DNA from: Lingula anatina
Taxonomy: Eukaryota > Animalia > Brachiopoda
Direction: 5' to 3'
Length of the DNA: 64,000 nucleotides
Assembly (NCBI GenBank): GCA_051362555.1
Contig: CM120644.1
Coordinates: 15,336,534-15,400,533 of the forward strand
Each line of letters opens with the position of its first letter. Position 1 is the stretch's first letter. The translations under genes and the position numbers were made by a program. Below the pieces are notes generated by a model, which saw only the letters and a program-made list of their open reading frames with translations, searched no databases and was not told the origin of the DNA. Below, piece after piece: positions 10,722 to 55,863 of this stretch.

Positions 10722-10757
10722 CTGTCACGAAAATAAAGAAGGTTTGAGTTCAGTGGG

Positions 10758-13810: not shown

Positions 13811-14018
13811 CGGCAGCCATATGGATCAGCACGCTCTTGCCGGACCTCAGATTACCGAACTCGAACAGCATCAGGTAGGCGGTGATATAGTTGACTGGAA
13901 TGGCGGCGCCCTCCTCAAAACTCATCTCCTCGGGCATCAGGAAACACTGGTCAGCCGGGACATTGGCCAGCTCCGTCCACAGTCCGAATTCCTTGTAACA
14001 AATGACCCTGTCGCCGAC
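13811..14018 (-). CDS. VAT1: VAT-1 homolog, exon 2 (first shared exon)
   Basis: Acceptor catcttctacag|GTC and donor GCCG|GTGAGT, 208 nt, phase 0 to 1. Reads VGDRV...MSFEEGAAIPVNYITAYLMLFEFGNLRSGKSVLIHMAA. Confidence 0.96.
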
Positions 14019-15247
14019 CTGTAGAAGATGTAAAAGCAAAGAGTTAGGCACGCTGTTTGTTATATGCATTGAATTATGTAAAAAAACTGGCTGTCCTTAA
14101 AAAAAAGTTGATTAGACTGAAAAGTATAAAGGATTCTTACAAGGACTTGTCCCTGTGATAACAGTAAAAACAATTCAACAAAAAAGTTATTTTTTTAAAT
14201 AGGGAATTCGACTAGCACTATATTAAGTTAAAATATCGAAGCAAAAAAGAAATGTTTTTCAAATCACTCTTACATGAAAATTATTACGACAGCTAAACCA
14301 GGCAACATATATTTATTTTGCACTGGTATAAGCGATTCAATTTTAATATCGCAAATCGGATAATCTTTTCCTTCGAACTCAACGTGTATATATGAAATGT
14401 ATAATAATTATAAACAAGAGAAGACTCGCATTAGTTGTCAACGGGTCAGAAGCCTTCCTCTATTCATATATTAGAGTAACTTATCCCGTTACAGTTTTAT
14501 ATTTACGCACTGAAGCAAAAAAGGAAATAATACTCCCCCCCCCCTCCCCGAAAAATCCTCCATGCGCCATTGAATGGACGATCTACTAATAGGAGTGCTC
14601 GTCTAAAATGTGTGATGCATAGATATTGCTCTAAAATAACATCGGTAAGAAAAGCAATAAACGGGTGCTCCGAAAGAATAAGCAGATTAGAATAAGTGCA
14701 TGACTCCTCTGTGGTCATATGGTCTGATGGAGGATTTTTTATATTTGATTATCGTGTTTACACGGAGCTCTTTGACGGGGCTAAATAAATATTTGCGTAT
14801 TAAAGAGTAAACACATTGCTTATTTTAAGTCACAGCGTTGTGGAAATTAATATTGATAATTTTTGTTTTCGCTGAAAACACAAGTTTAATATTGTTTTTT
14901 AAGGTGGTAAGGTACTGATTTGTCCTTTATTAATGAAGAATATTTTGAAATTCATCAAATAATGAATTTCTGACAGACACGAGGGGAGCAGAAACGGTAA
15001 TATAAGCTAGATAATACAAGTGTATCGCAAATTATCGTCTGCTGTTGTGATTGCATTATCGTCTGCTCCTGGCGGTGTCAAATCGAGTTAACTGAGATAG
15101 ATTCCCCCGTTATCGCTGGTATTAGATATAATTTCGATTAACACGGCGACCTTGCAGCACTGATACAGGATAAAATGATTTCTGTGACAACCGACTTGGA
15201 AACAATGGTTCTACAATATACAAACACCGCCTGGTTTTGAGGGAATA

Positions 15248-15571
15248 AGGTCGCATTCACAAAAGTGGACTAACTAGTCCGAGGATCAATTACGGCAGAC
15301 CCACTTGAATAATCCCCCAAAGGGGAATCTATTCAGTGTCTATTTTTATAAGTTAATTGTCTTACTCATTGTGATTGTTTAATAACACATTCACAAAAAT
15401 TATATTTATTTATATTGTCATTTTCATCCACCCAGGTGGATGCATATGTTACAGTGCAATAAACTAAACTAAACATTAAAAAAAACTATTAGCGGATTAG
15501 ACGGCAAGTTTTTTAGTGGGTCGCCATATTTGACCCGCGGACTAGTTAGTCCACTGTTCTGAATGCGACCT
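15248..15571. mobile_element. Family A MITE carrying a nested 141-bp insert
   Basis: TA|AGGTCGCATTCA...TGAATGCGACCT|TA with perfect 12-bp termini. It is oriented opposite to the 54089 copy and interrupted at 15345-15485. Confidence 0.85.
15345..15485 (+). mobile_element. Short retroposed (LINE/SINE 3'-end-like) insertion
   Basis: Ends in AATAAA, CTAAA repeats and an A tail. Flanked by CTATT direct repeats (15340-15344 and 15486-15490). Absent from the sister MITE copies. Confidence 0.65.
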
Positions 15572-17103
15572 TAGAGGATTTGCAGCCCTGAGGGAATATT
15601 TATTCACCAGTTCAAATCCCGATGCTTGCCATATTTTCTTCACGTCACTTGAACCTTATTTAGTTAATGAGCAAGCTCAGCTCATGAAAGGTTTAAAACA
15701 AAGAGGAAAATCAACAGTTCCAGAAACATCGATAGCATTACTTTGTTTTCGTGACGTTCCTTTTTCTAGCTTGTTTTACAACGCGCTGAAGGGTAAAGAC
15801 TTAACCTTATAAGAGCCGCACGATTAAGTTACATTTGAAAGGTCAGTCTAGTAAATTGAAGTTTTACTTTTCTCGTGCGCTTTAAGCATTGGTACAACTA
15901 AACCAGACGGCTTTTAAAACAAATGTTACCTATCAGACTCTAGAGACTTTATAACTAAAAAATGCACCCATTTCTTTCGCTTAAGTCCATGGTTCTTCGT
16001 TATCACAATTTTTTGGCGAGACGGGTTTTAAACAAGGCTTAAGCCTTATATTATTTTCCGTTCTATCATCACAATCTCTTAACACGGCTGAACATCGTAA
16101 AAATATCCTTAAATATGTTTGACAATGACGATCAACGTGCGCATGCGTAGCTTCTCTCATTTCCCCTTATACAATAAATGTGTGTTGTCTTAACATTTCG
16201 TTTTGATATATCTCGATAATTATAATACATAAACCCGACACGTTTAAGTGGGTTTTCATGTTCTTCTCCATCTTAATGTGACGAGAGATATTGCCGATCG
16301 AAGCTTCGGTCCCTATAATCAGTCTTGTTTGTTTAATGGCGCATGAAAATGAGGTGTAGCAGATATTCATTTCTTTTCTCCGACAACGTTCTGAGAGCTG
16401 AGCGAACAACATCAAGAGACTGAATATTTCATATATTCGCATTTTCCACTTTTATGCATCGCTATATATTCAAGGGGAAATACCGCTGTTTAAAAATCTG
16501 ACCTACGCCGCAGACCCAATGGAAATATAGACCTATATTGGTAAACTAACAACAACATTGTGTTAAGACATGGGACAAGCTGCCACCGTAACATATGTCG
16601 AGTAAATCAACAAGCAAAGGAAATATTTGTCTCATTGATTCCTCATTGATTGAATCATAGTAACTCGGATAACGCAGAACAATGCTCAAAAAGGATTAAC
16701 CTACATGTACACTAAGGGCAAGCTATCTATCAAAATGTTTTATTATTTAAATATTGCTTGAACTGTATTAAAATACATCATATGTTGTTTACGCTAATGT
16801 TATGATAAAAATAATAACAAAATACCTATAATAATATTGTGCTTATCATAATAACCACCATGCTTTAATATTCTTATCATCATCTGCAGTCTTATCAAAT
16901 AGGGCGTGTGTTGAGAGTTCCAATGACAAATTCATCACATAACAATGCCTGTCACTAGAGATACTGCAGCAATGACAGAAACGGCCTACGCATCCTGTCA
17001 TGCGCCGGTGAAGTGCCATATCTAATGATGAAATGCAATTCTTCTGTTGATAACAGGACGCGAAGACGCTGTAAGTGTACGTGTGGGTGTGTGTTTGCTC
17101 GAG

Positions 17104-17135
<32 letters not shown>

Positions 17136-18214
17136 AGAGAGAGAGAGAGAGAGAGAGGCGTACGCAACATTATTTGAATTAGTACCTTTGCTTTCATAAA
17201 TATTTTTAACGTTCTAGGAAACCACCCTGATGCTATTTTGGAAAGACCTCTAACCCCCTCCTCTCTACTCTACTCCCCCTTTCAACCACGAACATAAAAC
17301 ATTGCGGTTTCAGCACAGCTGCGTTCCCGTTGATCAAAGGAGTCTTCACTTGTTTAAAGCTTAACGCCATTTTGTCCTTATGATTCAGATCCAACACACA
17401 TCAAGATCGATGTACGTGCTCAACATGAAGTTAACACTGAGGAGAGTTATTTGCAGTTACAGACCGGTTTCTGTAAAATATTGAATTTGGCAATCAACTC
17501 AAGTCATTATCTGTGCACTGCGAAATCAGAAAGACGGCCGTCGTCCTCTAAGATTAACTTTTCCATGCACAGACAGCAACAAATTTCCTCTTAATTGTGC
17601 GTAATGAAATGGCATTTATGTCAAGGGGAGAAATAATGTAGAGCAATTTCAATACATAAACGCAGGTCATTTGTTGACAGCAAGGCGCTAAGATATGAGA
17701 AAACCTCACTGAAATAAGAGACCGATTTATGACATTTGCGCCAGGCAATATGGAAGTGAAATATTATAAATCACTTTCATACTACTTGCTTATCGGTCTT
17801 CAGAGACAATATACGGGGAGTATTTTTTCCTAGAAGCCAACAGACTTAACGGCATTTCAACATAGCCTCTCTCTACTGTTAACAACGAAGCCAGCTCGCT
17901 GGAACGCGGATATACGTGATTTATATTTCTTTGACATAAGAGTCCCTTATTAAAGATGTAAAACTACGTTTTTTTTCATACCTGTTTCTAACCTTATGGC
18001 ATAAATCTCCCACGATTACCTAATGCCTTCATATTAAATAACTCAATCTAAAGACTGTTGAAAGGCGTACAAGTAAGGGGCCGGCAACGCACGCGCTCGC
18101 GCGCACACACACTTACACACACACACGGGAGTTTCATGCCTTAGCATTTCTATGAACGTTTTCTCATATGTACTAGATGTGTTCATATCAGAAAAACGTA
18201 TATGTTAGTGCAAA

Positions 18215-18217
<3 letters not shown>

Positions 18218-18267
<50 letters not shown>
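18218..18267. repeat. (GA)n microsatellite
   Basis: Seen directly in the sequence. Confidence 0.95.
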
Positions 18268-18268
<1 letters not shown>

Positions 18269-18440
18269 GGGGGGCACCAGCTTATAACGCCATTCAAAGA
18301 AAATCCACAGGCCTACTTAAATCACCTTTCCTTCTCTTTAACATAATTACACACAACCTTGTAGGCCTACGTGCATAACAACAAATGTGTTTTTAAATCA
18401 CGGGGCGAGAATGAGATTTAACACCGTTTGTGACTAGTAC

Positions 18441-18776
18441 CTGAAGGCTGGTGACCTGCTCCCCAATCTTCTCCACCACACCAGCGGCCTCGTAACCCAG
18501 AACACACGGAAGCTTCGGCAAGATCTCATAACTCCCCTGTCTCCTCATTAACTCGTTAAAATTAAGTCCAGTCGCTTTGACGCGAACCAAAACCTGAGCC
18601 GGCTCTAAGGGCAGAGGTTTCTCTTGCCTGACTTTTAAGTTCCTGTACCCCCCATGCCCCGTAAGGACGATGCTCTTCCGCGTCGGCGCCGGGGTCGGGG
18701 TCTCTTTGGCTTGGGCCGCGGACGCTGCTGCTGCGCCGTCTGTCACGGCGGGGCCCTGGGCTTTATCGTCCGACAT
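18441..18776 (-). CDS. VAT1: VAT-1 homolog, proximal first coding exon (1b), GroES-like N-terminal segment
   Basis: ATG at 18776, 112 codons, donor CAG|GTACTA in phase 0. Reads IVLTGHGG...VRVKATGLNFNELMRRQG.Y...LGYEAAGVVE. Splicing to exon 2 gives 456 aa. Confidence 0.93.
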
Positions 18777-19524
18777 TGGTGGAAAGAGTGTAACTAACCC
18801 TCGATGCTACAGATTGCAGGTTACTGCTGTGGTAACCGCCTAGCCTCGCCTGACAGAGAGTAAATGAGATTACATTTTTCACTGGATCGATAAATGAGTC
18901 AAGTGTTTGTAATATTTAATGTGTTTCGTTGAAGGGACGCGAGCTGGATTGTGTTAGTTGCGCTGAGCAGTAAGGTGGAACACTCGTCGCAATGACGCTA
19001 ACTTCTCTACTGTAAACTGAACTTGGGATTGTGTTATTCATCCAGCAGCGAGCAGGCTAAGTTGATTAACCTGCATTACAGCTCGTAGTCTTATTTTGAT
19101 CTGCGTTTATTTATTTGTTTGCTTTTGTAGGCGTCATTCAAACACACAAAACGTGGTTTTGTGTGTGTGCTCCACTGCTGAGAGCAGCGTTTCAGACCTC
19201 TATCTAATCTAAGTCAACATGGGCCTATAATTATATACGACACCTCTTCCACTATAAAAAGTGCGTATGTCTTGTCACGTGCGCGACACTAGATGACCTT
19301 TCAGGTTTCCAATACCACGATGTTTATGTTATGCTTAGTGAATTTGAAACGTTTTTTGTTCTGATTATCTAACATCGATGCTGACTTTGCAGTGTGGGAT
19401 TAAACCGAATGACACCTGCATAAAAATTAACAAGGAAAAGCTTTTCAGCTCGGGTTTTATAGTTATCGCCATTGTTTATGAGGAAACTGTGAATTCATCT
19501 TTTTTACATATTTTTCTACTACTC

Positions 19525-19758
19525 CCTCGCTCTCTTTCTCTTTTGCAAACACTCATGGTTTTCTCCCATTTCTCTTTCTCCTTTCTCTCTCTCTTCATTC
19601 CTTCCTCCTTATTTATCCTACTCCATTACTCCTTTCTCTCTCTCTCTCTTTCCCTCTATCTCTCTCACTCTCTCACTCTCTCCATCACTCACTCACTCAC
19701 TCCCACTCTCTCTCTCTCTCTCCCTCCACCGCCCCCCCCCTTTCTCTCTCTTTCTCTC
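19525..19758. repeat. CT-rich low-complexity polypyrimidine tract upstream of exon 1b
   Basis: Seen directly in the sequence. Confidence 0.85.
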
Positions 19759-21725
19759 AAATATTTTACCCCTTTAACAGAACCGAAATCGGACTTATCA
19801 AGACCTAGACCTAGACGTATTAGGTAGGACCCAGACCTTAACCACACAAACCTTATCGTTCCCCTCACTTTCCCATACGACATTAGCCCCGCTAGAAAGG
19901 ACTTTCGCCACAAAAATAGATTACACGAGATCAGATATATGGAAAATCCCCCCTCGAACCTTAAATGCACCTAATATCTCTACGTGCATGTATGTGAAGA
20001 GTGTGTCACTGAATCATCATGAAATTTAGAAACTGATGACAGAGAAACGTTGTGACACCGGCCCTGCTAGTGACCCACTCCTTCCGTTATTGTTTTCCCA
20101 TATTTTCTGGCATACCTAGGTCCATGGGAATGTCTACAGTCGCTAGCTTAATCATGCCAGACATCAAATTATCAACAAACTTTTATTTTCAGGTTTGACC
20201 ACAACTGAAATAGTTTATCATTATGTCATATCATATCTTGTTGTATTATATAATTATTTATACTAGTATATTATATCAAATGTTTACAAAAATATGTTTG
20301 AAGTCGCAAATCAAACACCTTTCATATTATAAAATTTCACAGTCGACCGCGAGAGTATCATAATGCTGTGAGAGAATTCCCTAGCGGGATGTTTCACAGC
20401 CACTGCGCTGATACCGTAAATTACAATATGGAGAGCGCTATCAGTATAGTAGCTTCATCCAAGCCACTAAATATCGCAGTTCGCATAATGCAGTGCTCTA
20501 TCAATATATCCCTCCCTAAGGCAAGGCTGTCTGATCGAACACTGCAAAAACCGCATCCAACTGTCAGACAACGTTACGTGTTATTAACATGCCAGCCAGA
20601 CAATATGAGGACATTCATATCGATTTTTTTGCAGCAGAACTTCTCAACCTGATTTCGAAGGGCTTCTGTTTTTTCTCCCATGGCGGGGTAGTTTGCTGAT
20701 GACTAATGAGAGAGATATACAGTTGTTTTTTTTTTTTTTTTTTTTCTTTTCTTAAGATGTGTCATCGGTTTGATTTTTGTAAAGGTCAATTTTAGTAAGA
20801 ATGTGATGATATATGTTTATTAAATACAGCGGAAATGTTGGCGTATAAACAGAACAATGTGCTGTATTAAGAATATTTTATTATTACAAAATTAGATCTG
20901 TCTGATTTCTACACAATTTGCAGGAGCCTACCAAGAGCTTTTCTATCAGAATCGTATATTTTATATCTATTTTATCCAAGCATCAAAATAAATGAAGATT
21001 TGGGACTGATCAGCGTACTATACCATAACACACAATAACATTACGTACATTATGATATTAAGATTCAAGAGAACGAACCATCCCTTAAAACAATGCCGAT
21101 TTCTTACAATGTAAAGAAATCAGTTAATCTGTAACGGCATGCTTCTTTACGTCAGTTTACTGTAAACAGTGGGGTCAAAAGTTTCGACTTTTTCAACAAT
21201 GAGTAAGACAGTGAGTAAGAATCAGTTGAAAATGCACATGTTCACTTGCTTCAGACAGCTGACAGGAAGAAATGTCGAGAAAAATCCAACAAAATGGCAA
21301 ACCGCAGTGCCAAGAGGAGGCGGCCTGTTCAATTATGCCTTCTAAATCATGCGCACGCGCCTTAGGTCGCAATACATACATGGAGAAAAAAATTGAAGAT
21401 TAGATGGCATTTTTAAAGAGGCACACATTTGCACACGTGAGCCTTAGGAATTGAGACCGCGTGCTGTCAAATAACGCCATATTTAGTATCTGACACACGA
21501 TATCTTAGCACGACTTCCATGTATTTCAGTTTATGAATAGGAATTGATGGAATAAAATATGATACCTAACAGAAATGGACAAACACAATTTGTTGATTGT
21601 TGTTGCTTGATATATTCAGGGTTGTTGTTGCTTGTCAGGAAGGGGAAATTATCAACTCTGCGTCGTCTTTATTCATTTACGCTACTTCATATACCAAAAA
21701 GTCTGGACCTTCACCCCATTCCCAC

Positions 21726-21778
<53 letters not shown>

Positions 21779-23066
21779 CTGCTTTATGACAACGCCCCGA
21801 ACCTATCTCTTCTAAATAATTCGTTCATATTCTTTAAAACGTTCCTGAAAGAAGCTGTTTGTTCGATTCCGTTGCTTCTGTGAACAATTCGGAACCAGGA
21901 TTCACAAGGCAACCTCCACGTCTCTTAAGAAAATACAAATACCAAAATTATTGTTATGTTCATACGCCATAGAGCTCCCATGGGTAATGTGGTTTAATCT
22001 GTGCACATATTATCCATAAATTCGTTCATTTTCCAGTTATCTTCCATTGAAACGGACATTTACTATGATTTAGAACTGGTGCTGAAACGGGATGCGTCAA
22101 AAAGATCATGTAACATATGCATATGGAGCATATTTTTTTCTGAGCAACTTTAAATAAACACTGACTGCATTGTCAATTATTCTGCACATCACTTAGCGCT
22201 GTGCAAAGCGTGAAGAACAGAGCAAGACGCCATTAGCCATTTCACAGGAAAAAAGGCAATACAACCCTTATTACAGTCTGTTCCCATGGCAACGTGTTAT
22301 TGTTCGTGATCGCGAGTTGATAAATGTTAACATTCAGTCTATATGGAAATCGGTTTAATGGAATTACAATACCTCATTGCAGCAGTAATATACAGCGGCC
22401 AGTGTACAAAAATAGCAAGAAATAAAGAGAAGAGCTTGGTTTAAACGATGCAATATTTGTAGATTCAATATTTGTCGTTCAGAACTGTTTCACAGATTTT
22501 TTAACCTATCCCCTACACTCAAGAACATTCACACCAAACCACTACCGAAGCACTGCTGGAGAAAAATTACGATCTTATGCAGTATTTCACCCTCTACCCA
22601 TTCCCGTTCAAAAGTTAAACAAAGGGCTAGAGAGATAGAGGGGTAAGAAAAAAGCAGGACATAAGTCCTTTCCCTTCCAAAGCCCTGACTGTGTTATTAA
22701 TACAAAGAAATGACTTACAGACACAAACCTTTTCTATGACATGTAATGGATATTTTCTCGCAATTCTGAAAATGTCAAACCACAATGGCATTGCAACATG
22801 TCAATTTTAGAATAGTTTCATTGGAAAATATGCACAACACGCAATATGCAATTTAACTCTGCTCCTCTCTCGCCAGATGGCGCGCGTGGCAGCGTTTCTT
22901 CGATGAACTGATCTATCTAGCTGTTTCTGTCGGAAGGCGGTTTTGGCTGGTTTTTATCATCTCGTATTTTCTCTGGGGTATTTGATGTGCTTTAGTGACT
23001 GATATGCTGGGTTTTAGTTACCAACAGGGCTGTTTTGTAGAGATGAAATCGTTTGCTCGGAAGTTC

Positions 23067-23109
<43 letters not shown>

Positions 23110-26100: not shown

Positions 26101-26295
26101 CCTGTAAAAGCCGCACGATACTGAAACATCTGGGAGTTATTGTGCCGATACCTGATCATTAGCCTATTTATCTCTTTAAACCTGTCTGCTTGAACGCTAG
26201 GTGGCCTCGGACGCGTTCAGACGGGCGAAATATGGAACGGTCTGAATGAGCCACCACAGGAACGCATTTTAATCAATATCCGAGAAAGGCAAAAC

Positions 26296-26417
26296 GTTTT
26301 CATTTATGATATATCCACATATTTGGTTTACCTGTTGACTGTTTCGTCTGTTCACTCTGACTTTAGGTAAAATCTGTTCAGGTAAATCAAACATGTGGAT
26401 CTATCATAAATGAAAAC
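26296..26417. repeat. Inverted repeat (39-bp arms, 44-nt spacer)
   Basis: gttttcatttatgatatatccacatatttggtttacctg pairs with caggtaaatcaaacatgtggatctatcataaatgaaaac, with 3 mismatches. Confidence 0.85.
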
Positions 26418-29400
26418 TTTTTTTTACTATCAAAACTGAGGTCCAATGAAACTATTTTCGTATTCACAAATATCCACGAAAGTTTAAGACGTAAGCGACA
26501 CAATGGGGTCCCTCTGGAGAATCAATCTCCGAACAATACACTTCCATAAGAGCTAGTAAGGTCGGAGAGGAATGGAGATTGATTTGGACTTCACCTCCCG
26601 TGCACCCGCAGAAACTATTTTACACACACCATATGCTTGTTGTCATTAGCTCTGACCTCTTTTGGTAGGGTGTCATAATTCTTTTTACACTCATAACATA
26701 ATAGACTTGATGAGGTCTGCGAGGTTAACAGAGCTACATTAATAATCGACGAAATTTAAAACTTTTCCCTCTTTAAATACCATTACAGGAAATTGCGCTC
26801 AAAACGCCGATGAAGGTTCCCCCGCCTTTAACACACCCCTGAGCAATAAAATTTTTCTCGAGGATTACGGCAGTTAGGAGCTCTGTCATCTAAATCTACA
26901 AGAAGCTTTCACATGCAGAGTATATTTACGAATAGGTCTTCTAATGCACTCATAAGTAACGAAGTAGTTTACAAAAATGGCAATGAAGAAAAACATGCAC
27001 AGCAAGAGCTTGGAAAAGATACTATACTTTGGCAGATTTACTGTTACCATAAGTTTCAGAGTGCCTACATGTTTATGTTAGTTTTTTTCTCCTTCCAGTA
27101 ATTTTCGGATATTTTGCCTTTTTAAAGAAAATGCGCTACATTGAAACGTTTTCCTGTTCATTGAATTGATGGTCACATTCAGTTTCTGAGTATTTAGGTT
27201 GGTAACTCACATTACGTCATAACTACGTCACTGTCTTTACAAGTGACGTCTGGTGCAAAAGATCGAAAGAAAGACTCGTTTTCCTTTCTGACACAAATCT
27301 CCAGTGCATCCCAGATCAGGGACGGACCCAGAGATATTTTCTGACAGTCTTTCACATTATCTTTGTTTATCCATCGTCCATTTTTTGACCGTCTTCCGAC
27401 AGAAAAAATTAGGTACTCATCAATGTAAACTTAGAAATTTGACCGTCTTCCGGAAGACCCAGAAGGCCGCCTCAATCTGCCCTTGAAGATAATATTAAGG
27501 GACATAGCACTTGGCAGTGACCCATAAAGGGTATTTCCCCTTGGTGTGTGAAAAAAACTGTGCGAAGAGTTGAACCCGCTACTGTAACACGCAAGTGACA
27601 TAAGACTTTGATATGCAGTGACCAAAGACTGTGACATGTAAGTGACGTAAGAGCACCATACAAGAATCTCTTTCAGCGCATCCCTACACTGCAACTAACC
27701 ACAGATGGTACTTCATTAATGAGAAAATCGCTGCTGGCCACGCATCCCGCTGCATTACGCACAAGGAGGAGATGAAAAGGAATTCTTCCATTATCGTCTG
27801 GCCTGTTAGCAGCTTTTACCCTCTTCCAGGGCTGCAGATTAATTATGTACACGTTTCTCCTACGCAGAACAGTTCCATCAATTTATCCAGAGACATATCT
27901 GTGAATATAGAGTGAGAAGTCAATCTGTGGCCCTCGTAAACGGCAATCTTCTATGACCTGGCTCCAAGGAGCGAAACATGACTGGTTGACTAGACCCCCC
28001 CCCCAAACCCACCCCCTTCCATGTTATTTCTTTTGTAATCCCTGATCTGATTGATCAAAATAATATGTGGTTGAAGGGATATCAAACGTGGAAATGACGT
28101 AAAAAGGATTGCAATCAAGCGCACAAGTACGCACTAGTTTCAGGTAACATAATAATTTAATTCGATTGCATCTTGGGACTGTTTCGTAATAGAACAATAT
28201 GGTCGCTGTTCCCAATTGGTTTTCGGGGATACTAATGTCAGTTTAACATCTTGCATCAAATTGAAGCCCTTATAAGCATAAACATTTTTCTCGTTTATGG
28301 AGTAAGTAAAGTAAACGGTGACTATTCAAAACGGCCCTGCGTTTCAAAAACTGGCCAACAAAACATTAGATGACTCACACACACTATAAGAAGAAGTAGT
28401 AGTAGAAGTAATAGAAGAAGTAGTAGTAGTAGTAGTAGTAGTGGTATTCTTTCACTCACTTGACGCTTTTTATATTTGACTAGCTTTTGATATTTGACAC
28501 CACAAACCGAATCTTACGCTTCACATCCAGCTACTTTTTTTATTCAGGCACAGTGCAATATATCAGTTATGAGATAGCACAAAAAGTTTATTTTTATATA
28601 CAAGGTCACTAAAGCAGAAAGCAGACGGTATCAGAAGAAAAGATAAAGTGATTTATCAAACGACCTTGACCGGAACACACAAACAACTTCATTATCACAG
28701 GAGATGAAATTTTGGACCTAGCACGCATACCGCTTCATACATATGTAGTGCGAATAGAGTGTCCATTGTATTCTAGAATTTTAGAAAGCTTTTTTATTGG
28801 TGTTTTCAAATGGTTATGTAACGCACGGCAATGGCGAATTTGTCATATCAAATATGATTTCGGGAAATTATGAATAAATTAAATGTTTGAATAAAAGGAT
28901 GTTAGGCTATCTGAGCAGAATAACAATGCAATACTACTCATGTTATGTGAATTGGAAGTGAACATGAAAAATTAAATACCCTTAGAGGGGTTTTGAAATT
29001 TGCAGAAGGGTCTCGTCGAAAGAATTACTTTAATCCTATTTTCGCAACGAAAGTAATTTATATGCCTCTTCAAATTGAAGTGCATGTTGACAGAAAAAAA
29101 TGGCATCAAAATAAAACTGTTCCTCCCGAATGCCTGAGTCTACAAAACAATACTGATGTTCCGTAGTGGAAACAGTATCTGACAGTCAGTGTTGGAATGT
29201 GACCTTTTGACCTTTCACCGCGACCCCGTGACCTGACACCGCAGCGCAGCACTTATTCGCATGAAACCAGCCTGTTGCCCGTAACGAATGAAGTGTTGAA
29301 TGAAAACAGAAGGAGAAGCTGATTAAATATGAGTTCTCCTCCCTTTATTGACACGTCCCGTCATCACACAGCAAATATGGGGCAATGAGCCTTATTTTTT

Positions 29401-29469
29401 TACCATTGTCGATCAGTGTGTGTGAGTGAGAGAATGAGAGAAAGAGTAGAAAACTTTACCATTTTGTTT

Positions 29470-30309: not shown

Positions 30310-30388
<79 letters not shown>

Positions 30389-38798: not shown

Positions 38799-38839
<41 letters not shown>

Positions 38840-39410
38840 ATTGTGTGTGTGTGTTTTTTTTTGCGTGTGTGCGTGTGCGAATATTTGTGTGTGTGCGTGT
38901 GGTTGTTAGTGCGCGCGTACGTGCGTGTGTGTGTGCGGAGTGCGATAAAGAGAGATAAAGAGAGTAGCACATCCCTCCTCAAAATATTTTCATTAATTTT
39001 ATAATTTCTGCGAACTAGGTGGAAACACACAATGGCACGATGCCACGGTCCTTTACACTACATCTTGTCAACCCCTTCTGGCAGAAATGACATCATCATC
39101 CATCACCAACAACACGTAAAAAACACAGTATAAACAAACAAAAGTTAAGCACCTCGCTGATGGCGTCTGATCTGAAGGATTAGTGACGTCAAGATTCGTC
39201 TAACAAACCAATCGCTTGCCCTTTTATGAGCTAATTGTGATTAGAGGCTCAGAAAAAAACAGACGCCTTCTTGTAATGCACAATGTTACGAGTCGATAAT
39301 GTGTAAAAAATTGGGTTCCATTTTAGCACGCACGTGCTCTTACTCCACGATAAAAGCACACATACTGTAACTGAGTACATGTGTATCACCAATACGTCAC
39401 GAAGATTTTA

Positions 39411-39662
39411 AGGCATCGTTCCTAATGAATTTATATATCGTTCTATGCAGAACGATCCAACTCCGTGAGGACTATCGCCGAATGCAATCAGATTAACACG
39501 CTTCCTCTTGTTTCCAACGTAACCGTATAATCACCAGTTTGCCTGTAGCCACTCAACGCCAGGAGAAAGCGTGTTTGTCTGTTAATCCGATTGCATTCAA
39601 CAGGAGTCCGCGCGGAGTTGAATCGATCTAGGTAGAACCATTGTTTCATTGGGAATGAACCT
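39411..39662. mobile_element. Family B MITE, inverted relative to the 3445 copy
   Basis: TA|AGG...cgatccaactcc...tgcaatcag / gattgcattc...ggagttgaatcgatc...gggaatgaacCT|TA. The internal aatcaccag..caacgccaggag is the reverse complement of the 3445 interior. Confidence 0.75.
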
Positions 39663-42600
39663 TAAAACACGAACATGGGAACAAAAATGTATTTAGAAAA
39701 TGAAAAAACACGCACACAGACACAAACATGCACACACAAACACATTAACATGCACATATTGACACAGAGGTACGCAAGCGCAGGCAGAGACAAATACTCA
39801 AGCGTACACACACTTACGATGTACACACCCATGCCCAAATACCCACACTTGTTTAAGCAAATGCTAAATACACAAAATGTCTGGAAAATGTACAAAATAT
39901 AAACTTCGATCGTCAGACACTTCCATGTGACCCAGCAATGTTAACTGGGAATGCTTTCAACCATTCCACTATGATATCGGTAAAAAGAAAATTGCCTAGC
40001 CCTTAACTGCAATGAGACGACAGAGATCCAGATGGCGTTTTACTTGACCTTCCTATAATATTTTACCAGGTTACGGTGGGGTGGGGTGGGGGAGCAACAA
40101 AAAGATGCACAGTCGTAGATGTGAAGCAAGAATCTTAACATGAGCTACTCAGTGGCATCTCGTAACACCCCACAATCCTTCAGTCAGTGACTCGTCTACT
40201 TCGTCGTTAAAATCTATTTATACTGCTACAGTATATCCCTCCCATTTTCAATTGCAAAAGAGTTAACGAGAAGTCCAATTGCTCATTTTTTTCTCTCTGA
40301 AGTCGAATAAGGGGAGATGATGAAAAAATTGCGTGGAATAGGAGACTTTCTTAGAGGAACGCTTGTCGCTTGGGAATGGTTTATCACTGGAGCTGTAGAC
40401 TGAGGGATCGTTTTGATGAAAATATTGAAAAGGTTCATAATTTACATCCGTCCGTCAAATAGCTTGTTGGAGATTCACAGATTTTCTCTCAACGCGATGT
40501 TACTGTGCATGACTCAAAACAATTAATAATGCAATGGTGAGTCTCCCTAAAACGTATCGATAGACGAACGAAATAAAAGAAACGTCGCCTAGCAGCACAA
40601 AGAAACTTAAATGTCATTTAAGACTGCGATATTGTACAACGCAAAATCCAGTATTAGTCTATACTTCAGAGAATGGTTCGTGGCAAATAACAGCTTCGAC
40701 GCAACATTACTTGAATCAATAGAAAAGGCATGAAAGGCAGCTATTTATTTTGCTAAATGCCAGCGGTGACATTTTAGCTGTACAGATAGCTGTGAGCAGG
40801 TTATTTCTTCATCATCCCCATAATCTTTATCATTTGAAAATGTTTCCAATCTTTAATTATCAATAATTTCTCATTGCAATAAAAACACGAATACGTCACC
40901 AATTCCTCTTTACTTATATCCAAGATTTTTACCCCCCCCCCCCTGCCCCACTCGCCCTACTTAATATGGTTCGTTTTTTTAAATTAGATCACTCCTCTCC
41001 TACCCCAGCCTCAATCTCGATTCGGACCCGCTTCTGAACTGGTCTGCTTTGTCTCTGACCCCTCCCCCCCCGCCCACCCCACCCCACCCCATCCACTGCC
41101 CTACAGCATCCGGCAACCTTTTGGGATACCAGATTAACATAAGCCTTGCAAGCATCATTACCACTAGGGTCCTTTAAACCATCTACTAATACAGCACCAC
41201 TATGTAACTGCTTAGCAGCTTATCGCAACGAACTGTGAACGATCGATGCGCCATCCCGTGGGGACATGAGCGTTAAAGCTTCCACAATGTTCATAATACA
41301 AATGATCAATAAGTATGAATCGGATTTTAGCCTCCAACACCAAGATGTACCTGTCACATGTACCTGACTCAATGAGACGGGACTATATTAGAATGTTATA
41401 TGAACAAACCCGAGATATTAACTCTCTCAGACACCAGTTGGACCGACTTTTTCGGTCGGAAGTAAATCTGTGTGAACGGGGTTGGGATCACGACGCAATC
41501 TGCACATAACTTGTGTAAGAAAGTTACAAAAGAATAAATGTGACTATGAAGTTTAATCCCTCATAATAATAGGGGAACAGTTGACGCGTTAAAAGACCAC
41601 GGCGTCGTAAGCCCTTACTTATTGCATTATTGTGACGTAACGCGTTATTGTGACGTAACATATATCAATACCAATGCCTTGGGTCTTAATACAAAACGAC
41701 ATATGCACAAATAGACCGCACATCTGTTTCGGATCCACTGAATGCCAATGATACTGCTCATTATCCTAAATGGTCCTATGTCATGATTATAAAGCTCGCT
41801 TCCAGTTAATAATAGCTAAGAGGATGTGGTGTTCAGTTTGTGGAGTTAATTTTGGTATCTCGTGACAGCCGGGACAGAGTTAATTTGCAATTTTCGAATG
41901 CTCCAGCAGCTTTAATTTGACGGATTCATAACAAGTTCGATTTAATGTATATATCCAGTGTAATTTACTTTCTATTATTTCGGGCTTATTTGGTTATGCA
42001 ATACAGCATGACACGGATCACTTTAAAAAATATATTAAAAATTCAAACGATTCCTGGGACTTCATTCTGTGCACCTGATTATCTGGACAACCTCCTCTTC
42101 TGAAAATGTGTTTCGTTATCAAAAACCACACAGACAACGCAGTTCCCATTACGCTCATCGGCCCAAGACAAAACTCACTTGTCTTAAAGAGTTGACTCTT
42201 TACCCCCCCCCCCCCCCGCCCCCTTGATGCCCTTATTTAGATAGCGGTGAAGGAATTTATTTATCTAAACAGGTAAACACATTCAACATCTTTGTAAACA
42301 TTATCAAAGGTAAGTTTGGGTCAATGCATCCCCCCCCCCCACACACACACACACACACTGCCTGAAGAGACCGCACATGGTACATCATTTAAGAACAAAA
42401 AGGACCTAAAATCAGAAAAAAGCCGATAATTCATCTCTCGCTTAAATAAAGAAGATGAAGAAAGAGGTGGTGCGAAAATACGCGAAGCCATGTTTTATGT
42501 ATCATCCTGACTAGCTCCCATAAAATCATTCAGACACACACAAGTTTTGCCTAGTGGTATGTCAGGTCGCAACAAAAAAGAGGAATAAACAGTGGGATCC

Positions 42601-43067
42601 ATCTAGCAAATAAACTGAAAAGCAACACTTCCAAGGTTCCTCTTTTTATCTGAGGCACTTGAACTTAAAAGAGGATCGAGAACGATAACCTCCAAGGAAG
42701 AAACAACCCAAAAAGATAATGACCTTTAAAGGGCTGCAATTTTTTTCCATTTACACGCTGGAAATCAATAGAAGTGAGCTCTGTTCAGCTAATTTGGGTA
42801 GAGGCATTCTGTTGAAGTTAAGTTTTCTGTTGGCTTTGCAAAGAATGGTTTTGCAACATATTTTTATCTAAAACATTATGCACTGGATTTAATGTACTGT
42901 ATTTAACAAAACGCATCTAAAGGCAGACTTACTGACCACATACACATACACATAAACACGCACACAAACACCCACACACAAATGCACACACAATATCGCT
43001 TGTTATTATCTTTCCATCTGTACCCAACCCCCAACCTAACAACCCAAAATTACAGCCTAACCCCCCA

Positions 43068-43101
<34 letters not shown>

Positions 43102-45514
43102 TGCACACGCACACACAAACACACACCCACACACACCTCCACCACCACCACCAACAACAACAACAACGTCCGCGAACTACCTCCTAGCATTAATTCACTC
43201 ATCCCTCCCTTCTTTTCCAAACTCCATGTCAACTGTTTGACAACAAATGGCCAAAGATTCCAAAATGACTCAATAACAGTAAACATGATATACTGACTTT
43301 GTATCCCCGGTTATTCAAGTTACAAAGCCATGTTTAAAAAGAATGCGGCCAGTTCATAGAGGTCATTTTATACGCAAGGACTGCCTCGCATCTCTTGTGC
43401 TTGGACCCATTTGTGAAAAGTGCATAATACTATGACTTTAAAATGCATTTACTTAGATACGCTATCTCAAAAACAGAAACCAAGAGCTTACACACACACA
43501 CACACACACTCACACACACACACACACACACACACAGTTTAAACAAAACACACAAGCACACGCAAATAGACGCACGCCCGCATAGATTTACACACACAAG
43601 TTAAAATCCGCTTGATAACAGGCTGACCTTCAACCACTGTTTAATTTCCCAATTTCGCTTTCAGGTTTAACCAACATTTAAAATCACACATCCACAGCCG
43701 CAAGCACGTGCATTCTCCCTCAAGGTCATCCCACCGCCTGTCAAAACTCGCCAGTTGTTTATTTTTGTGGCTTTCTCTGGTACTTTTTATCTGTGCCTCG
43801 ATCAGCAATCTGCACGTGAATCAAAAATCCCGACGCACGCAAAATCTGCGTTCTGGTTAAGTGAATCATATGAAATAGAATGATAATTAGGGTATAGACC
43901 GAGTGGGTGACTGAGTCAGATCGGACTCCTATCCCTCCCCCTCCCACAAAAACACCCACGTCTCCCACGCACACGCGAAAGGCACATACTCTAACAAAGA
44001 AAGATTTTTTTCTCGTGTAGAGAGATGCATTGACAGCGAACCCTCCCCCCCTTTTTAAACCCCCTGCACACGCACGCGCAACGCTTATACGCAAGCCAGC
44101 ACGCACGCCGTGTTTTCTCCTTTCACTCGCTCCTCTCGTGTGCCAGTCAGTCTGTAACTGTCATGCAAGGGTCAAGTTGTTTTTGTCTTGTGAAGTGGAC
44201 AGGCTGACCTAACAATGATAAATTGAAACCAAGTGTCCATGCATTTCTATTATTTAGAGAGAAAATTGAATTAAGTTGGAACACCTGACTTCAACAACTG
44301 TTGCACTGACACAAAGAAAGACTGCAGCAGAAGCAAATGTAAATTTACAATAAAATGTCTCATCTAAGGACTGAAAGTCCTACATCAAATATACCTATGT
44401 CAATTGTGTCATTTTGAAAAACACAATGTGTACTCGCCAAATATCATGCACGGTTTCGGCACTAATCCAAAACAACTGCGACGACAGAGACATAAGAGAT
44501 AGACGTTTCAAAGTGCAAAACAACAATAACATGTTGAAGATTTTATCGCTACTCATTTGCGGCGGCATACCGCGATCGTTTTCCGTAACGAGGAAGACGT
44601 GAATAGGTATATACCGTGCTGTCACACGTTTGTGTGTCTCTTTTTCTTTTTATATGAGACTGTACATTGTAGCGTTTTTACTCCAACTGTTTTAATGCCT
44701 ACTACAGGAAGTGGGCAGTTTAAAAGTCAATATGAAAGTGAATATATGGTATTGCATAATTTTAATGTTTCCTTCCGCTATTTGCGAAGCCCAGGTGACC
44801 CTGCAGTTTTTCTTCGAGTTAATTAATGCAAACCGGTCTTTACTACACCTGGTCTGGTCCTGAACCCCCCTCCCCCCTCCACCGTTCATCAAAATCTTAT
44901 TTTCCCTTCTTGGCAATCCACACAAACACTTGTCATACAAGAATACCTACTTAACCTTAGATCTTATCAATATAATACCTCAAGTACGTTTTCAACAAAC
45001 AAATACGTGTCGCTAAATTTTAACTCATTATCAGATGAGGGGGTACTCTTGTATCACGACCATGTCCTGTCAACATATAAAACGGCGTGTTACTTTTGAA
45101 ACTACACAACTTTAAATGTATGTTTAAGAAGCAGTCACGGGACTGGTGCGTAAAACCGAAATTATTTATTATTTCAACCATGAGGTCAGTAAATAAATGT
45201 CGGTCGGTTAACCACAAGCGTTCTGTTTAATAAGCACACCAGTGATACAGTCTTGGGGAACGTCTAGATACAGAACAACATTTGCTTTATTAGTGGTCAG
45301 ATATGAGTACTGAGTTTGGAGATGGCTGTATTTAAACCCTAAGAGCTTCACCGTGGGATAAAATACACACTGAGAACTTCCCTCTTCTATCAGTATGCCT
45401 TTCTGCCTGTATTTGGAGAGAAGAGTTCCCTCTAAAATACTAAACTTTCAGGCCCCACTAAAATACTATACAACATTTTTGTAACAGGCTACTAGAGCAT
45501 CCTGAGGCCAGAGT

Positions 45515-45545
<31 letters not shown>

Positions 45546-47878
45546 GATTCAGTAGCTTCTCAAACTCAGGGTGCATGCCTATGACGTAATGACTAATCGA
45601 GATATTACTCCGGATTCCTTTGAAATTCCATCGCACTTCGCCAGGCCCGGCTAATTTACTATAGTATGTACTTCGTTCACAACGATTAGAGTATCGGCTT
45701 CCAAATCTAGCCAGGTATATTACGGTCTATCATAACAGTATCTCCTAACAAACATTGTGTGTCATTCAACGAGTACGGGACATAAATAATGACCGAGCAA
45801 AGATCTACACCTGATACTTAAACAACCCCTGCGTTGCGTAACGAGGAAGATGATTTAATCAGTCACCGGCGTCTTTTCGGGACGCACCTTGAAGATGACC
45901 CGTTAACGAGCGAAATCACGAGAAATGAGCCTGCTCTTTAAGAGAGAGGGAGACGCGCCCATTTGGTCTGGAGACGCTGTCGTAATGACAGAGTACGTTG
46001 ATAAACCTGAAATGCCCGTGAAACATCCTCCCAAAACCATTGTCTATCTTGCTTCCACAGGCTATGTTTTGTTCCCCTTTTCCTATTATATATATTATGA
46101 ACAACACGTGATTTGGGTACAAAACAAGTGGAGATGTTTTAAACCGCATGTTTCCTGCTTGCAGGGAACTAAGACAATTTAATTTCTTTACGCGCAGCTG
46201 TATTTTCAGACTCCGTTGGAATGAGATAAAAAAGGTCGATGTGACCTTTTTAGAATAACAAAATGGCAATAGGGATGAGGAATATTTGATATCTGATATA
46301 ATGCATTATGTTTTCATCATGTGTGTAATCAGGATGTAACCATAGATCTAATAAATACAGTCATTGTAAAAAGGGTCTCGATTTCCAAAGAGTAAATACA
46401 AGGAACGTCTGTTAACAGGGAACAAGCAACTTAAAATAACACTTATTTACTTAGCTAATGATCAATCCGTTAATATGAAACACAGAGAGCTAATCTAAAC
46501 TAATTATAACGATCGGTTGGAACAAAGTTCAGGCAGATGACAGAAATAAGTGAATGAATCATCGCCATAACAATGCGGATATGTCGATTTCGGAGTTGTC
46601 GTTTACATCGAGCTTGTCGATTTCCGCACGCTTGTTGATTTCGTCGCATGGAGATCGCTGCACTCGTGCTTTTGTCTTTTTCGTCTCATCCCCCAATGCA
46701 GCGTATCCCGTTTCGTTAATCACGAATTAGTAATATAACAGAGTGGTAAATGTATGTGTACAACACTACTTGCTTATTAAGCAGATGTTGTTGACCCGAT
46801 TGCATTCATCTGACAGTTTTCTTTTTGACTGAAATCGTCAGCAAGCCATCACTCGCCAAAAATATTGACCTTTTCATTTCACTTTGTTAAAAATAAACAA
46901 TCACTTTGTTATCGTAGCTTACACATTTAAATTTAGCAGGTTAATCTGTGAAGATAATGGATGTACCAATGAATAAATATATAACATCACAGAAAAGCTT
47001 CTATTTATATCATTCTATTTATATTAAAACGAATCCCATATTCAATCACAAGAAACATGCCGCATTATTCTCTAACACATAAATACGCATTGGCACCCCA
47101 GCCCCGAACCTGGATCATCAAATACGCGTGACCTTGGTTATTTTGTCACTGAGGAAAAAAGTTGACAACGAAATCGAACGCAAATGAAGTGATGTCATGC
47201 GGGAGTTAGTCACAAGGCAAACAATATGAATCCCGCTGTCTTTCCACATGATGGAGGCGACGGAAAATTTGTGGGTCGGAACGTGGATAATTACATCGCT
47301 CCCTTGATGATGGGGACTGAAATTATTCTGATTGCCCAGAAGCATATAGAAAGCTACAATTGAAAGCAAGCATGGCTCAGATACAAGAGAACATGCGACA
47401 ATAATGTCTCTCTGGTGTCTATATATATAGTGGTCTAATGGAAAAGAAGGAGATTCGTTACTTTGATCGGTGCATCGCATGCTTTGGGGGGGGGGGGGGG
47501 GGTCGTCGTAGGTAAAATAGCAAGGGGGTAAAGCAAAAGAGGAACTGCAGGAAGTGGGTGGGTGGGGTGGGGTGGGGTGGGGGTGGAGAGGATCATATTT
47601 GTTGTCAATGATATTGAGAGGGGGGCGGGAAACAATACTCTAAATATGTTGCTAGATATATGTCAACTGACGTTGATCTTTTTCAGATTACTTATATTCA
47701 AATAGACTCAAGCAAAGAGATGGATATGCATCTCTTTCACTCAATATACAGTGACTATGGGCCTTAATAAAATTTGAAGTCAGTCATGTATTCATGTCTT
47801 TATTCTCCCTGCAGAAAGTTTTAGATATTCTTCCATCTGTGTTTAATGCTAAGATGTTTTACAGCTATACTTCCACCA

Positions 47879-47917
<39 letters not shown>

Positions 47918-49951
47918 TATTCGGTGCACACGCGCGCGCAACCCGTCAGGATTGAGTGGCGGGGGGTGCAGCAATTTATCTTTAATCATGTGACATGTGC
48001 ACAGAAAAAAAGGAGAGGGGTGCAAATGAGTCATAAACAAAAAGTCCCTATCTCTCTCTCTCTCTCTCTCCACTTACTCAATACAAACCGCTCTGGCCAT
48101 GGATGAGTGGCTAGTCAGTATATGAATTTGACCCATAATGAGTCCGAGGGTATGACCAACTGGACCAGCGTTAAGCCTAGATGGACATCCAACACGCAGT
48201 GCCGTGCGCTATCCGATGTCCAGTCATTGTTTTTACTCACAACAAGATGACCAAGCCTCTAGTAAACGTGCTGGGCGCTATATTGTAATAGGTGGGCAGT
48301 AATTCCCCTATCAACCGTATTTGACTGAGTCAGCTGTTCAGATGGTTTTGAGTGTTAGAATTTTAAATAGACAAACATCAAATGAGCTTTAAAAACAAAA
48401 TCGCCTCTTTTTTGTTTTGTTTTGTTTTGTTTTTTTTTTGTTTTTTTTTTTTTTTTTGTTTTTGTTTTTGTTTTTTCGGTATTCTTTTTTTATCAATTTT
48501 AGGTCTATTAATACGTGGGTCGTATAAAACATGACCTTTGAATGGGACAGAAACTGTGTCGACAGATAAGATCTTTAAGAGCTACAAAAGTTATTTCAGA
48601 TTTTAATCTACATGACCCTAGTCGGTGGAATATTAACGCGAAGCATTGTCTTAACATTCTGTATGTTTAATTCGGGAATAATATGGGTCAAGTTGCATTC
48701 CACACATAACTTAAACAGACAATTGCACACTGAATAAAATAATAATCATAATAAAAAGAGAGTGAGAGTTTGTTTTACATAGCACACATGCCTTATTTGC
48801 AAAACACATTAAAGCAATGATAGAGAACCACAGCGTGATACGGGATAACATATCAATAGCATTACACTCGTATGCTTACGATGCTGGAAGAAAAACACAT
48901 CACAAACCGAACAGGGTAAAGAGATTCTCAAAAACCATGACACACTTATCACCGTAAATCTAAATAAGCAGTCAATAACTGCATGTGTCATCCACATACA
49001 TAAACGATTAAAATACAGTGGGAACTCTGCATACATAAATGTTATGTCGACGCCAGTTGGACCGAATTTTGCTCCAACGTGTCCCCGTCTGAACGGACCC
49101 GAAAGAATTATAAAAAATTACTGCATCATCCCGGCATTCAGAGAACACTGAACATAATCACACTAACATAATATATCTCGTCGCGTAAGAACAGCTTTCT
49201 ATTGATCCCCAAGCAACCTCCCTGGAATGAAATCCCGTTTTTCCTGCAGACTCGCATAACCAGGCCTAATTATCATTCTCACAAGAAGAAAGGGAGAAAA
49301 ACATATAAATTTACACCAGTCCCGGGGGCTTAATTTATGAAATTCATTTAATAATAGTGTTTGTTAAAAGGGGGAATGGTCAGCGTGGTCAGTTTGGACA
49401 GATTCCTCCGCCCAGTGACGGGGAGATAATGAGAAAAAGCTGCCCGTCCGGAGCCTGGTTGTAAGCGTCAGATCCGCTGATTCGGACTGCGAGAGAGGCG
49501 TGGCAGGAAAGGGCCGCATCAACAACGAAAACGTCCAGCTCTCTCCAGCGGCGCTGAGGCCAGATTTGATTTTGTCTGAGCAATATCAGTGCGGCATATT
49601 TCTGAACACATTTTAGATAAGATATCTCTAACTGGTTACGCATTTATGATACAACAAGCCTTGGTTTTGCTAATTTGGAATAAATTATTGCGTCGAAAAA
49701 TCGAGGAGATCGCTACGTGAAGAGTGAGGTTTTCTGGATTTAGGAATAACGTCGAAGTGTAAATCAAGTTTCATAGAATAGTTTAAATAAATAAAATTCA
49801 AGTCCTCGTTTCATTTGGCTTGAAGATGTAGCATAAAATCAAAACCAAGCTGTTGTTTTCTACCATGAATCAATAGCGCAGTTTCTGAAAACTATGTAGA
49901 GCGGAACAGTAAGAAAATAAACATCAGGTGTAACAGTAAAACGTGTCTTAC

Positions 49952-50458
49952 CTTGAAATCGTCTACTTCTTCCCCGACTGCCTCGATAACTCCAGTTGCC
50001 TCCCAGCCCAGAGGTGTGGGCAGCTTGAGATGGGGCTTGTAGAGGCCGCATTTGGCCATCAAATCATTGAAGTTAACACCGACAACTTTGACGCGGACCT
50101 GGACATGCTTGGCCGGGGGAGTGACCTCGTATTCCTTTTGTCTGATCTTCAACTTGTGCTTTCCGTGAAGAAACACATGACGGACCGTCGGCTTGGCGGG
50201 CTCCTCGACTTTTTCCTCCTTCTCCTTCACTGCTTCTCCGTCTTTTTTCTCGGTGCCGTTCGTCTCAGCGGCAGCATCTTCGATCTTGGTCGAAGTTTCC
50301 CCGTTCTCCTTCTTCTCCTCGGCGGCCGTGGTGTTGTTAGCTTCGTTCTTCTCCACGTTGCCCTCGGTCTTCACTGGGGCATCCTGGCCATTTTGTTCTG
50401 CAGGGGGTGCGGCTGGCTTCTGCTCTGTTTGTTCCTTGTTGTCGCTGTCTGATGCCAT
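49952..50458 (-). CDS. VAT1: VAT-1 homolog, distal alternative first coding exon (1a): acidic N-terminal extension plus GroES-like segment
   Basis: ATG at 50458 (aaaATGG), 169 codons with no stops, donor AAG|GTAAGA in phase 0. Reads VRVKVVGVNFNDLMAKCGLY...LGWEATGVIEAVGE. Splicing to exon 2 gives 513 aa. Confidence 0.88.
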
Positions 50459-55753: not shown

Positions 55754-55863
55754 TAATGCTGCCACTTACAACAGACTCGGCATTCCACGGACGATTTTGG
55801 ACCGAGGCGTGTTGGATTTATGAGAAAATGGACCATAATTTGAGTTGTAAAGTTACGAGTTCG

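What the first reader, a model, noticed from the sequence alone, without database searches (positions are those of the whole stretch)
13811..50458. VAT-1-like gene with two paralogous, interchangeable first exons sharing one constant region
Seen: exon 1b (18441-18776) and exon 1a (49952-50458) both encode the GroES-like N-terminal segment of an MDR/VAT-1 protein. Both are stop-free and both end at the homologous codon with a phase-0 GT donor that fits the single exon-2 acceptor at 14018. Their last 51 residues align without gaps at 26/51 identity (hand count). I found no second set of exons 2-6 in the 31 kb between them. Known: this segment contributes to the catalytic domain of MDR enzymes, and variable first exons spliced to constant exons is the UGT1A / clustered-protocadherin design. 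Inference: an old exon duplication kept under selection lets alternative promoters swap part of the catalytic domain while the NADPH-binding region stays constant. I do not know this arrangement from VAT-1 genes.
Basis: partly seen in the sequence, partly recalled or inferred. Interest (0 to 1): 0.85.

Follow-up and report, generated by a model that had tools for sequence, protein, structure and literature searches.

The report
VAT-1 gene with two first exons
A brachiopod gene for a VAT-1-type enzyme carries two old, diverged copies of its first coding exon above one shared body; RNA reads show the far copy spliced in, the near copy is intact and likely used too, so the gene likely makes two versions with different front ends.

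Summary
Observation confirmed. The gene is VAT-1 of the brachiopod Lingula anatina (RefSeq XP_013421215.1 matches). Exons 1a and 1b both join exons 2-6 in frame (513 and 456 aa); their last 51 residues are 26/51 identical. The window holds only two exon-1 copies and one constant set. RNA from 4 of 4 runs laid shows 1a spliced to exon 2 across 36 kb (162 reads); 9 of 10 variants in 1a are synonymous. The open point is 1b. It is intact, more canonical than 1a and unlikely to be long dead. But no public protein holds it, its donor is weaker, and its splicing and both start sites were not tested. The swap covers about half of Domain I, yet 4 of the 5 pocket residues it supplies are identical, so a change of substrate is unproven. 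The layout is the known UGT1A/GCNT2 type; I found no report for VAT-1, and this scan noted the same layout in other invertebrate genes. New variant of a known kind.

The parts
49952..50458 (-). Exon 1a coding part: about 88-residue acidic, low-confidence tail plus first strands and helix alpha1 of Domain I; expressed and spliced to exon 2
   Evidence: last 82 aa 100% identical to XP_013421215.1
18441..18776 (-). Exon 1b coding part: about 30-residue Ala/Pro-rich tail plus a canonical VAT-1 module; intact, unannotated, splicing not tested
   Evidence: absent from protein searches
18777..18865 (-). Acceptor-like AG (next base 18849; 10 of 13 pyrimidines, like the gene's real acceptors at 9-10 of 13) and 73 ATG-free bases before the 1b ATG; use unknown
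   Evidence: sequence
13811..14018 (-). Exon 2, first constant exon; receives 1a in RNA
13306..13476 (-). Exon 3 (rest of the AAGGVG motif, 2'-phosphate-binding Ser/Lys/Tyr)
12701..12790 (-). Exon 4
10480..10721 (-). Exon 5 (Switch segment and dimer beta-alpha-beta motif by homology to human VAT-1)
   Evidence: PMC7822847
9888..10211 (-). Exon 6 coding part: C-terminal strands of Domain I plus acidic tail, stop at 9888-9890
10750..10960 (-). Two decayed tandem copies (about 95-bp unit) of the intron 4 end and exon 5 start; not open, not part of the first-exon system
   Evidence: (75% over 100 bp)

Best explanation
One Lingula VAT-1 gene has two old paralogous copies of its first coding exon above a single set of exons 2-6; exon 1a is spliced to exon 2, and exon 1b is likely spliced to it too from a likely separate promoter, which would give two versions of a predicted NADPH quinone reductase differing in the N-terminal tail and about half of Domain I. 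Shown: the anatomy, the 1a junction, the skipping of 1b by 1a transcripts, and selection on 1a. Inferred: 1b use, promoter choice, and splicing of the cap-proximal donor to exon 2 as in UGT1A/protocadherin clusters. The likeliest purpose is separate control of expression plus different tails and a slightly altered pocket mouth (Trp against Tyr; 1a lacks the G[HFY]GG loop), not a wholly different substrate. The dimer surface is constant, so mixed dimers would be possible where both are made.
For:: 54, 28, 52 and 28 reads end at the 1a donor in 4 of 4 runs laid; their loose ends match window 13987-14016 (exon 2 start) at 29, 30, 25 and 25 of 30 letters, agreement 0.97-1.0; intron depth 0; 9 of 10 variants in 1a synonymous (0.23 expected, p 1.3e-5; 0.0017 at 0.4). 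RefSeq XP_013421215.1 is 1a plus this constant region. For 1b: open 112-codon frame with ATG and phase-0 GT; GC at third positions 0.67 against flanks 0.39-0.42 and 0.66-0.70 in the other exons; 152 of 153 fetched proteins that hit both modules score higher with 1b, the exception being the Lingula protein; best PDB hit human VAT-1, E 2.4e-15; simulated neutral decay leaves it intact in 12% of trials at 5% divergence and 2% at 10%, whereas fourfold sites between copies are saturated, 4 of 15 identical. Pocket and dimer mapping: PMC7822847 with alignments.
Against: No RNA was laid on 1b or exon 2, so its junction and share are unknown. No protein holding 1b came up in three searches (197-2000 aa, 61-196 aa, best 120 of 1894 listed) or two exact look-ups, and the RefSeq name has no isoform suffix, so annotation knows only 1a. 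The 1b donor lacks the +5 G that the five other donors have. No start site was seen for either exon, and 1b has an acceptor-like AG upstream. No relative with both copies was found; the homologues fetched are mostly fish and amphioxus, so they are not independent, and all 22 amphioxus isoforms share one N-terminus. The decay simulation uses assumed rates (without indels 44% intact at 5%).
Confidence: 0.65

Rival explanations
1. 1b is a recently silenced or barely used relic (of an exon duplication, or of a tandem sister gene that lost its body); the gene works through 1a alone.
For: 1b is in no public protein found; RefSeq lists the 1a form without an isoform suffix; weaker donor; 1a reads skip it.
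Against: Frame, ATG and donor are intact after saturating synonymous divergence; coding-type GC3; shorter branch than 1a (0.42 against 0.98); decay would be visible beyond about 5-10% divergence.
Confidence: 0.17
2. 1a and 1b are mutually exclusive internal exons behind one shared non-coding first exon and one promoter, so splicing, not promoter choice, picks the module.
For: Acceptor-like AG 73 nt above the 1b ATG with no ATG between; 5' ends unobserved.
Against: AGs within 140 nt above 1a are weaker (at most 8 of 13 pyrimidines within 60 nt, one 9 at 126 nt) and an Inr-like motif lies 18 nt above its ATG (motif recalled). A private non-coding exon above 1b would explain the AG equally and still means two promoters.
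Confidence: 0.12
3. 1a and 1b are spliced in series to give a protein with two N-terminal modules.
For: An in-frame AG lies 30 nt above the 1b ATG.
Against: That AG has 7 of 13 pyrimidines; the stronger AG is out of frame with a stop after 28 codons; loose ends at the 1a donor agree 0.97-1.0 with exon 2.
Confidence: 0.02
4. Assembly artefact or a second gene copy elsewhere: the two first exons belong to different loci.
For: No whole genome was held, so other copies were not searched; runs X7 and X9 differ from the window at 5 of 30 letters at the exon 2 start.
Against: Continuous N-free sequence; X4 matches exon 2 at 30 of 30; a RefSeq model, one residue different from the window in the compared constant region, makes the same join; 1b lies only 4.4 kb above exon 2.
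Confidence: 0.04

Closest known systems
Lingula anatina VAT-1 homolog, RefSeq XP_013421215.1 (P0184)
   Same: 513 aa; 1a module 100% identical, constant region 99.6% over 262 aa
   Different: Annotates only the 1a form; 1b is not in it or in any other protein found
Human VAT-1 (PDB 6K9Y, 6LHR, 6LII; PMC7822847, parts 1-3 of 5 read)
   Same: phmmer E 2e-119; model of the 1a form matches at TM 0.93 by target, 54% identity; AAGGVG motif, 2'-phosphate residues, Asn89/Phe90/Met94/Tyr100 equivalents kept
   Different: Ala91 is Asn in both Lingula copies (0 of 145 other proteins), Met112 is Trp (1a) or Tyr (1b); no duplicated first exon seen among the fish and amphioxus isoforms checked
Vertebrate variable-first-exon clusters UGT1A, GCNT2, UGT2A, clustered protocadherins (PMC1885805, 12 of 23 passages; PMC9209448, passages)
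   Same: Paralogous coding first exons in tandem above one constant set; GCNT2 has only two in chicken, frog and opossum
   Different: Unrelated protein; only two copies seen; separate promoters and use of both exons not shown here; the variable exon supplies half a domain rather than a whole substrate-binding domain
Chelicerate sDscam 5' cassettes (PMC4835542, abstract and headings)
   Same: Invertebrate case of tandem variable 5' units chosen by alternative promoters
   Different: Large arrays of multi-exon Ig cassettes for cell recognition; here two single exons of an enzyme

Membership tests
VAT-1 subfamily of MDR quinone oxidoreductases | GroES-like plus Rossmann MDR fold closest to VAT-1 | tested here: met
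   Pfam ADH_N above cut-off in both first exons, ADH_zinc_N_2 above and ADH_zinc_N below cut-off in single exons; best PDB sequence and fold hits are human VAT-1
VAT-1 subfamily of MDR quinone oxidoreductases | AXGXXG motif and NADPH 2'-phosphate residues (human Ser222, Lys225, Tyr240), Asn379 | tested here: met
   Aligned and kept in the constant region (residues from PMC7822847); His241 is Arg here
VAT-1 subfamily of MDR quinone oxidoreductases | NADPH-dependent quinone reduction | not testable with these tools
   Shown for the human protein only
Variable-first-exon / constant-exon genes (UGT1A, GCNT2, Pcdh type) | Two or more paralogous coding first exons in tandem, same phase, above one constant set | tested here: met
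Variable-first-exon / constant-exon genes (UGT1A, GCNT2, Pcdh type) | Each variable exon is separately spliced to the first constant exon | tested here: inconclusive
   Met for 1a; no RNA was laid on 1b
Variable-first-exon / constant-exon genes (UGT1A, GCNT2, Pcdh type) | Upstream variable exon skips the downstream one | tested here: met
   Loose ends at the 1a donor agree 0.97-1.0 with exon 2
Variable-first-exon / constant-exon genes (UGT1A, GCNT2, Pcdh type) | Each variable exon has its own promoter | not tested
   No reads on either 5' end; only weak recalled motifs (TATA-like 461 nt above 1b, Inr-like 18 nt above 1a)
Variable-first-exon / constant-exon genes (UGT1A, GCNT2, Pcdh type) | Layout conserved in related species | not testable with these tools
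   No brachiopod or other lophotrochozoan locus could be fetched; 4 metagenome loci were distant, 32-46%

The most novel reading that the evidence does not exclude
Lingula uses promoter choice to build two catalytically distinct VAT-1 enzymes, and mixed dimers, from one gene: a canonical 1b form and a fast-evolved 1a form (Trp at the pocket, lost glycine loop, long acidic tail) with a different substrate or membrane target. This would be the first variable-first-exon MDR enzyme and a natural domain-swap experiment on the unresolved function of VAT-1.
Probability: 0.25. Interest if true: 0.65.

Novelty: new variant of a known kind. Interest (0 to 1): 0.45.

Why it matters
Paralogous coding first exons are rare in human genes (PMC1885805: of more than three thousand genes with multiple first exons, only a few clusters have similar ones), and I found no report for VAT-1 or other MDR enzymes. 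The native substrate and cell role of VAT-1 are unsettled. Two natural forms that share the cofactor domain, Switch segment and dimer face but differ in tail and half of Domain I would let one ask what that half does. It also corrects the annotation: 1b is missing from public proteins. The layout itself is not new, and this scan noted it in several other invertebrate genes, which suggests it is commoner outside vertebrates than the literature read here shows.

Tried and rejected
No whole genome was held, so more exon-1 copies beyond the 13.5 kb above 1a, and other gene copies, were not searched. The run search listed no RNA holder; raw-read runs with the same species label were laid instead, 4 of 9 listed, about 6, 6, 25 and 30% of each run read, on the 3' end of 1a only; 1b, exon 2 and both 5' ends have no read data. 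Protein searches with 1b gave 7 hits of 320-338 aa (those named are NADPH:quinone reductases) and 2 short hits. The profile search was crowded by fish and amphioxus (best 120 of 1894 listed). dN/dS between the copies: dN 0.46, dS not computable (saturated). The tree of the 83-column module (31 rows after dereplicating 154 modules at 80%) neither groups nor rejects 1a+1b as a clade (p-AU 0.178), so the duplication is undated; the shared Asn at the Ala91 position only hints at a lineage-specific origin. No similarity between the flanks of 1a and 1b. CpG content was uninformative. The Atlas search only returned the GroES-like family. The sigma-70 scan does not apply to an animal and was ignored. 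Loci L001-L004 were distant and not opened. 20 other long frames gave no Pfam hit above cut-off. PMC9209448 concerns deletions within an insect UGT exon, not variable first exons, so it is cited only for its UGT1A summary. No complex was folded: halves of one gene would pass by likeness to solved structures. No supplements were read; gene lists there could mention this locus.
Full report
Observation. On the minus strand the window holds one VAT-1-like gene. Exon 1a (50458-49952) and exon 1b (18776-18441) each start with ATG, have no stop and end in a phase-0 GT donor. Exons 2-6 lie at 14018-13811, 13476-13306, 12790-12701, 10721-10480 and 10211-9888, and either first exon gives one open frame of 513 or 456 residues. 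The last 51 residues match at 26 positions without a gap; the local score is 164 against a maximum of 58 in 2000 shuffles. Both pass the Pfam ADH_N cut-off. A profile of the two modules finds no third copy in the six frames of the window, and tblastn and nhmmer find no second constant set.

Identity. A profile search returned P0184, named synaptic vesicle membrane protein VAT-1 homolog of Lingula anatina, XP_013421215.1. It is 100% identical to the last 82 residues of 1a and 99.6% identical over 262 constant residues. So the organism is this brachiopod and the annotated form is the 1a form. Whether the window comes from the same assembly cannot be told; one residue differs. The model of this form (mean pLDDT 71.9; 1-78 and 467-513 below 50) matches human VAT-1 best (E 7.8e-49, TM 0.93 by target).

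RNA evidence for 1a. Raw reads of 4 of 9 listed runs were laid on 49850-50190. All four cover the exon (198, 66, 171 and 114 reads laid), and depth is zero in the intron bins. At the donor, 54, 28, 52 and 28 reads run on into other sequence. Compared by eye with window 13987-14016 printed, the consensus of those ends matches the start of exon 2 at 29, 30, 25 and 25 of 30 letters, with agreement 0.97-1.0. The two stranded runs place the RNA on the minus strand, if the libraries are of the usual kind. So 1a is spliced to exon 2 across 36 kb and skips 1b. Of 10 variants listed in 1a, 9 are synonymous, against 23% of possible changes (binomial p 1.3e-5; 0.0017 if 40% is assumed). 1a is a working exon.

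Evidence on 1b. No reads were laid on 1b or exon 2, so its junction is untested. In favour of function: the frame, ATG and donor are intact; GC at third positions is 0.67, like the other exons (0.66-0.70) and unlike the flanks (0.39-0.42). It is the more canonical copy: 152 of 153 fetched proteins that hit both modules score higher with 1b (mostly fish and amphioxus, so not independent), it keeps the G[HFY]GG loop found in 131 of 145 homologues and missing in 1a, and its branch is 0.42 against 0.98. The copies are old: 4 of 15 fourfold sites are identical and dS is saturated. In a simulation with assumed rates, a dead 1b would stay intact in 42% of trials at 2% divergence, 12% at 5% and 2% at 10% (72, 44 and 22% without indels). 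It is therefore in use or only recently lost. Against: no protein with 1b was found, the RefSeq name has no isoform suffix, and the donor GTACTA lacks the +5 G of the five other donors. I put 1b use at about 0.8 (judgement).

Promoters. No 5' end was observed. Above 1b there is an acceptor-like AG with 10 of 13 pyrimidines, 73 ATG-free bases before the start. It may be chance, the entry from a private non-coding first exon, or the entry from an exon shared with 1a. Splicing 1a into it would be out of frame, and the reads show 1a does not use it to any extent. Two promoters is the simplest reading and remains an inference.

What is swapped. From PMC7822847 (parts 1-3 of 5 read), Domain I of human VAT-1 is residues 43-168 plus 357-393, Domain II holds the Rossmann fold, Switch segment and dimer motif, and ten residues line the putative substrate pocket. 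By the alignments the exon boundary falls at human residue 129, so exon 1 supplies about half of Domain I and 5 of the 10 pocket residues (Asn89, Ala91, Met94, Tyr100, Met112). In Lingula these are N, N, M, Y, W in 1a and N, N, M, Y, Y in 1b: four of five agree (and alignments). Neighbouring positions differ (1a AKCGL, 1b RRQGS; Gln in 140 of 145 homologues, Cys in 1a). Phe90, which touches the cofactor, is in exon 1 and shared. The tails differ strongly: about 88 acidic residues against about 30. The same paper found that removing the human N-terminal tail nearly doubled activity. The likely outcome is two forms with separate regulation, different tails and a modestly altered pocket, and possibly mixed dimers because the dimer face is constant. 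Enzyme activity and all of these effects are inferred.

Origin. Both copies have Asn where 0 of 145 other proteins do, a hint of a duplication within this lineage, but the tree neither groups nor rejects them as a clade (p-AU 0.178) and no lophotrochozoan relative was fetched. An unnamed protein, P0295, departs from the family right after the same codon, which suggests this intron position is shared with another animal (inference). Single-exon duplication and whole-gene duplication followed by loss of one body cannot be told apart.

Comparison with what is known. The layout works like UGT1A, GCNT2, UGT2A and clustered protocadherins (PMC1885805, 12 of 23 passages; PMC9209448, passages) and chelicerate sDscam (PMC4835542, abstract). 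Membership is met for anatomy and for skipping, half met for separate splicing, and untested for promoters and conservation. Searches for VAT-1 with alternative first exons, VAT-1 in Lingula, brachiopod alternative first exons and MDR enzymes with duplicated first exons gave 0 papers; a looser search listed 20 of 38 papers, none on this by title. The library lacks most subscription papers and no supplements were read. All 22 amphioxus VAT-1 isoforms fetched share one N-terminus. This scan's own notes list similar layouts in other invertebrate genes (unchecked) and nothing for this sequence or genome.

Verdict. Real feature, half proven by RNA. New variant of a known kind; best explanation 0.65; interest 0.45.

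Noticed in passing
window 10750-10960, minus strand: Two decayed tandem copies of a roughly 95-bp unit spanning the intron 4 acceptor and the start of exon 5 (Switch segment); nearest copy 75% identical over 100 bp, frames closed or shifted. Possible old alternative acceptors.
   Followed up: partly
window 13987-14016 against runs X7 and X9: Reads of these two runs differ from the window at 5 of 30 letters at the exon 2 start (three silent codon changes and one Val-to-Ile codon) but at only about 5 fixed or near-fixed sites in 239 bases of exon 1a: a divergent allele or population, or a second exon 2 elsewhere. Unexplained.
   Followed up: no
window 3438-3708, 5861-6047, 15244-15573, 26291-26422, 39437-39658, 54087-54270, 55540-55755: Short dispersed repeats, several of them self-inverted (MITE-like), in at least two families.
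   Followed up: no
window 9888-10120 and 50195-50458: Both ends of the 1a form are long Glu/Lys/Ala-rich low-confidence tails; amphioxus VAT-1 has many annotated isoforms that vary outside the shared N-terminus.
   Followed up: no
window 18777-49951: No other protein-coding gene was detected between the two first exons among the long frames scanned (20 frames across the window, none above a Pfam cut-off).
   Followed up: partly
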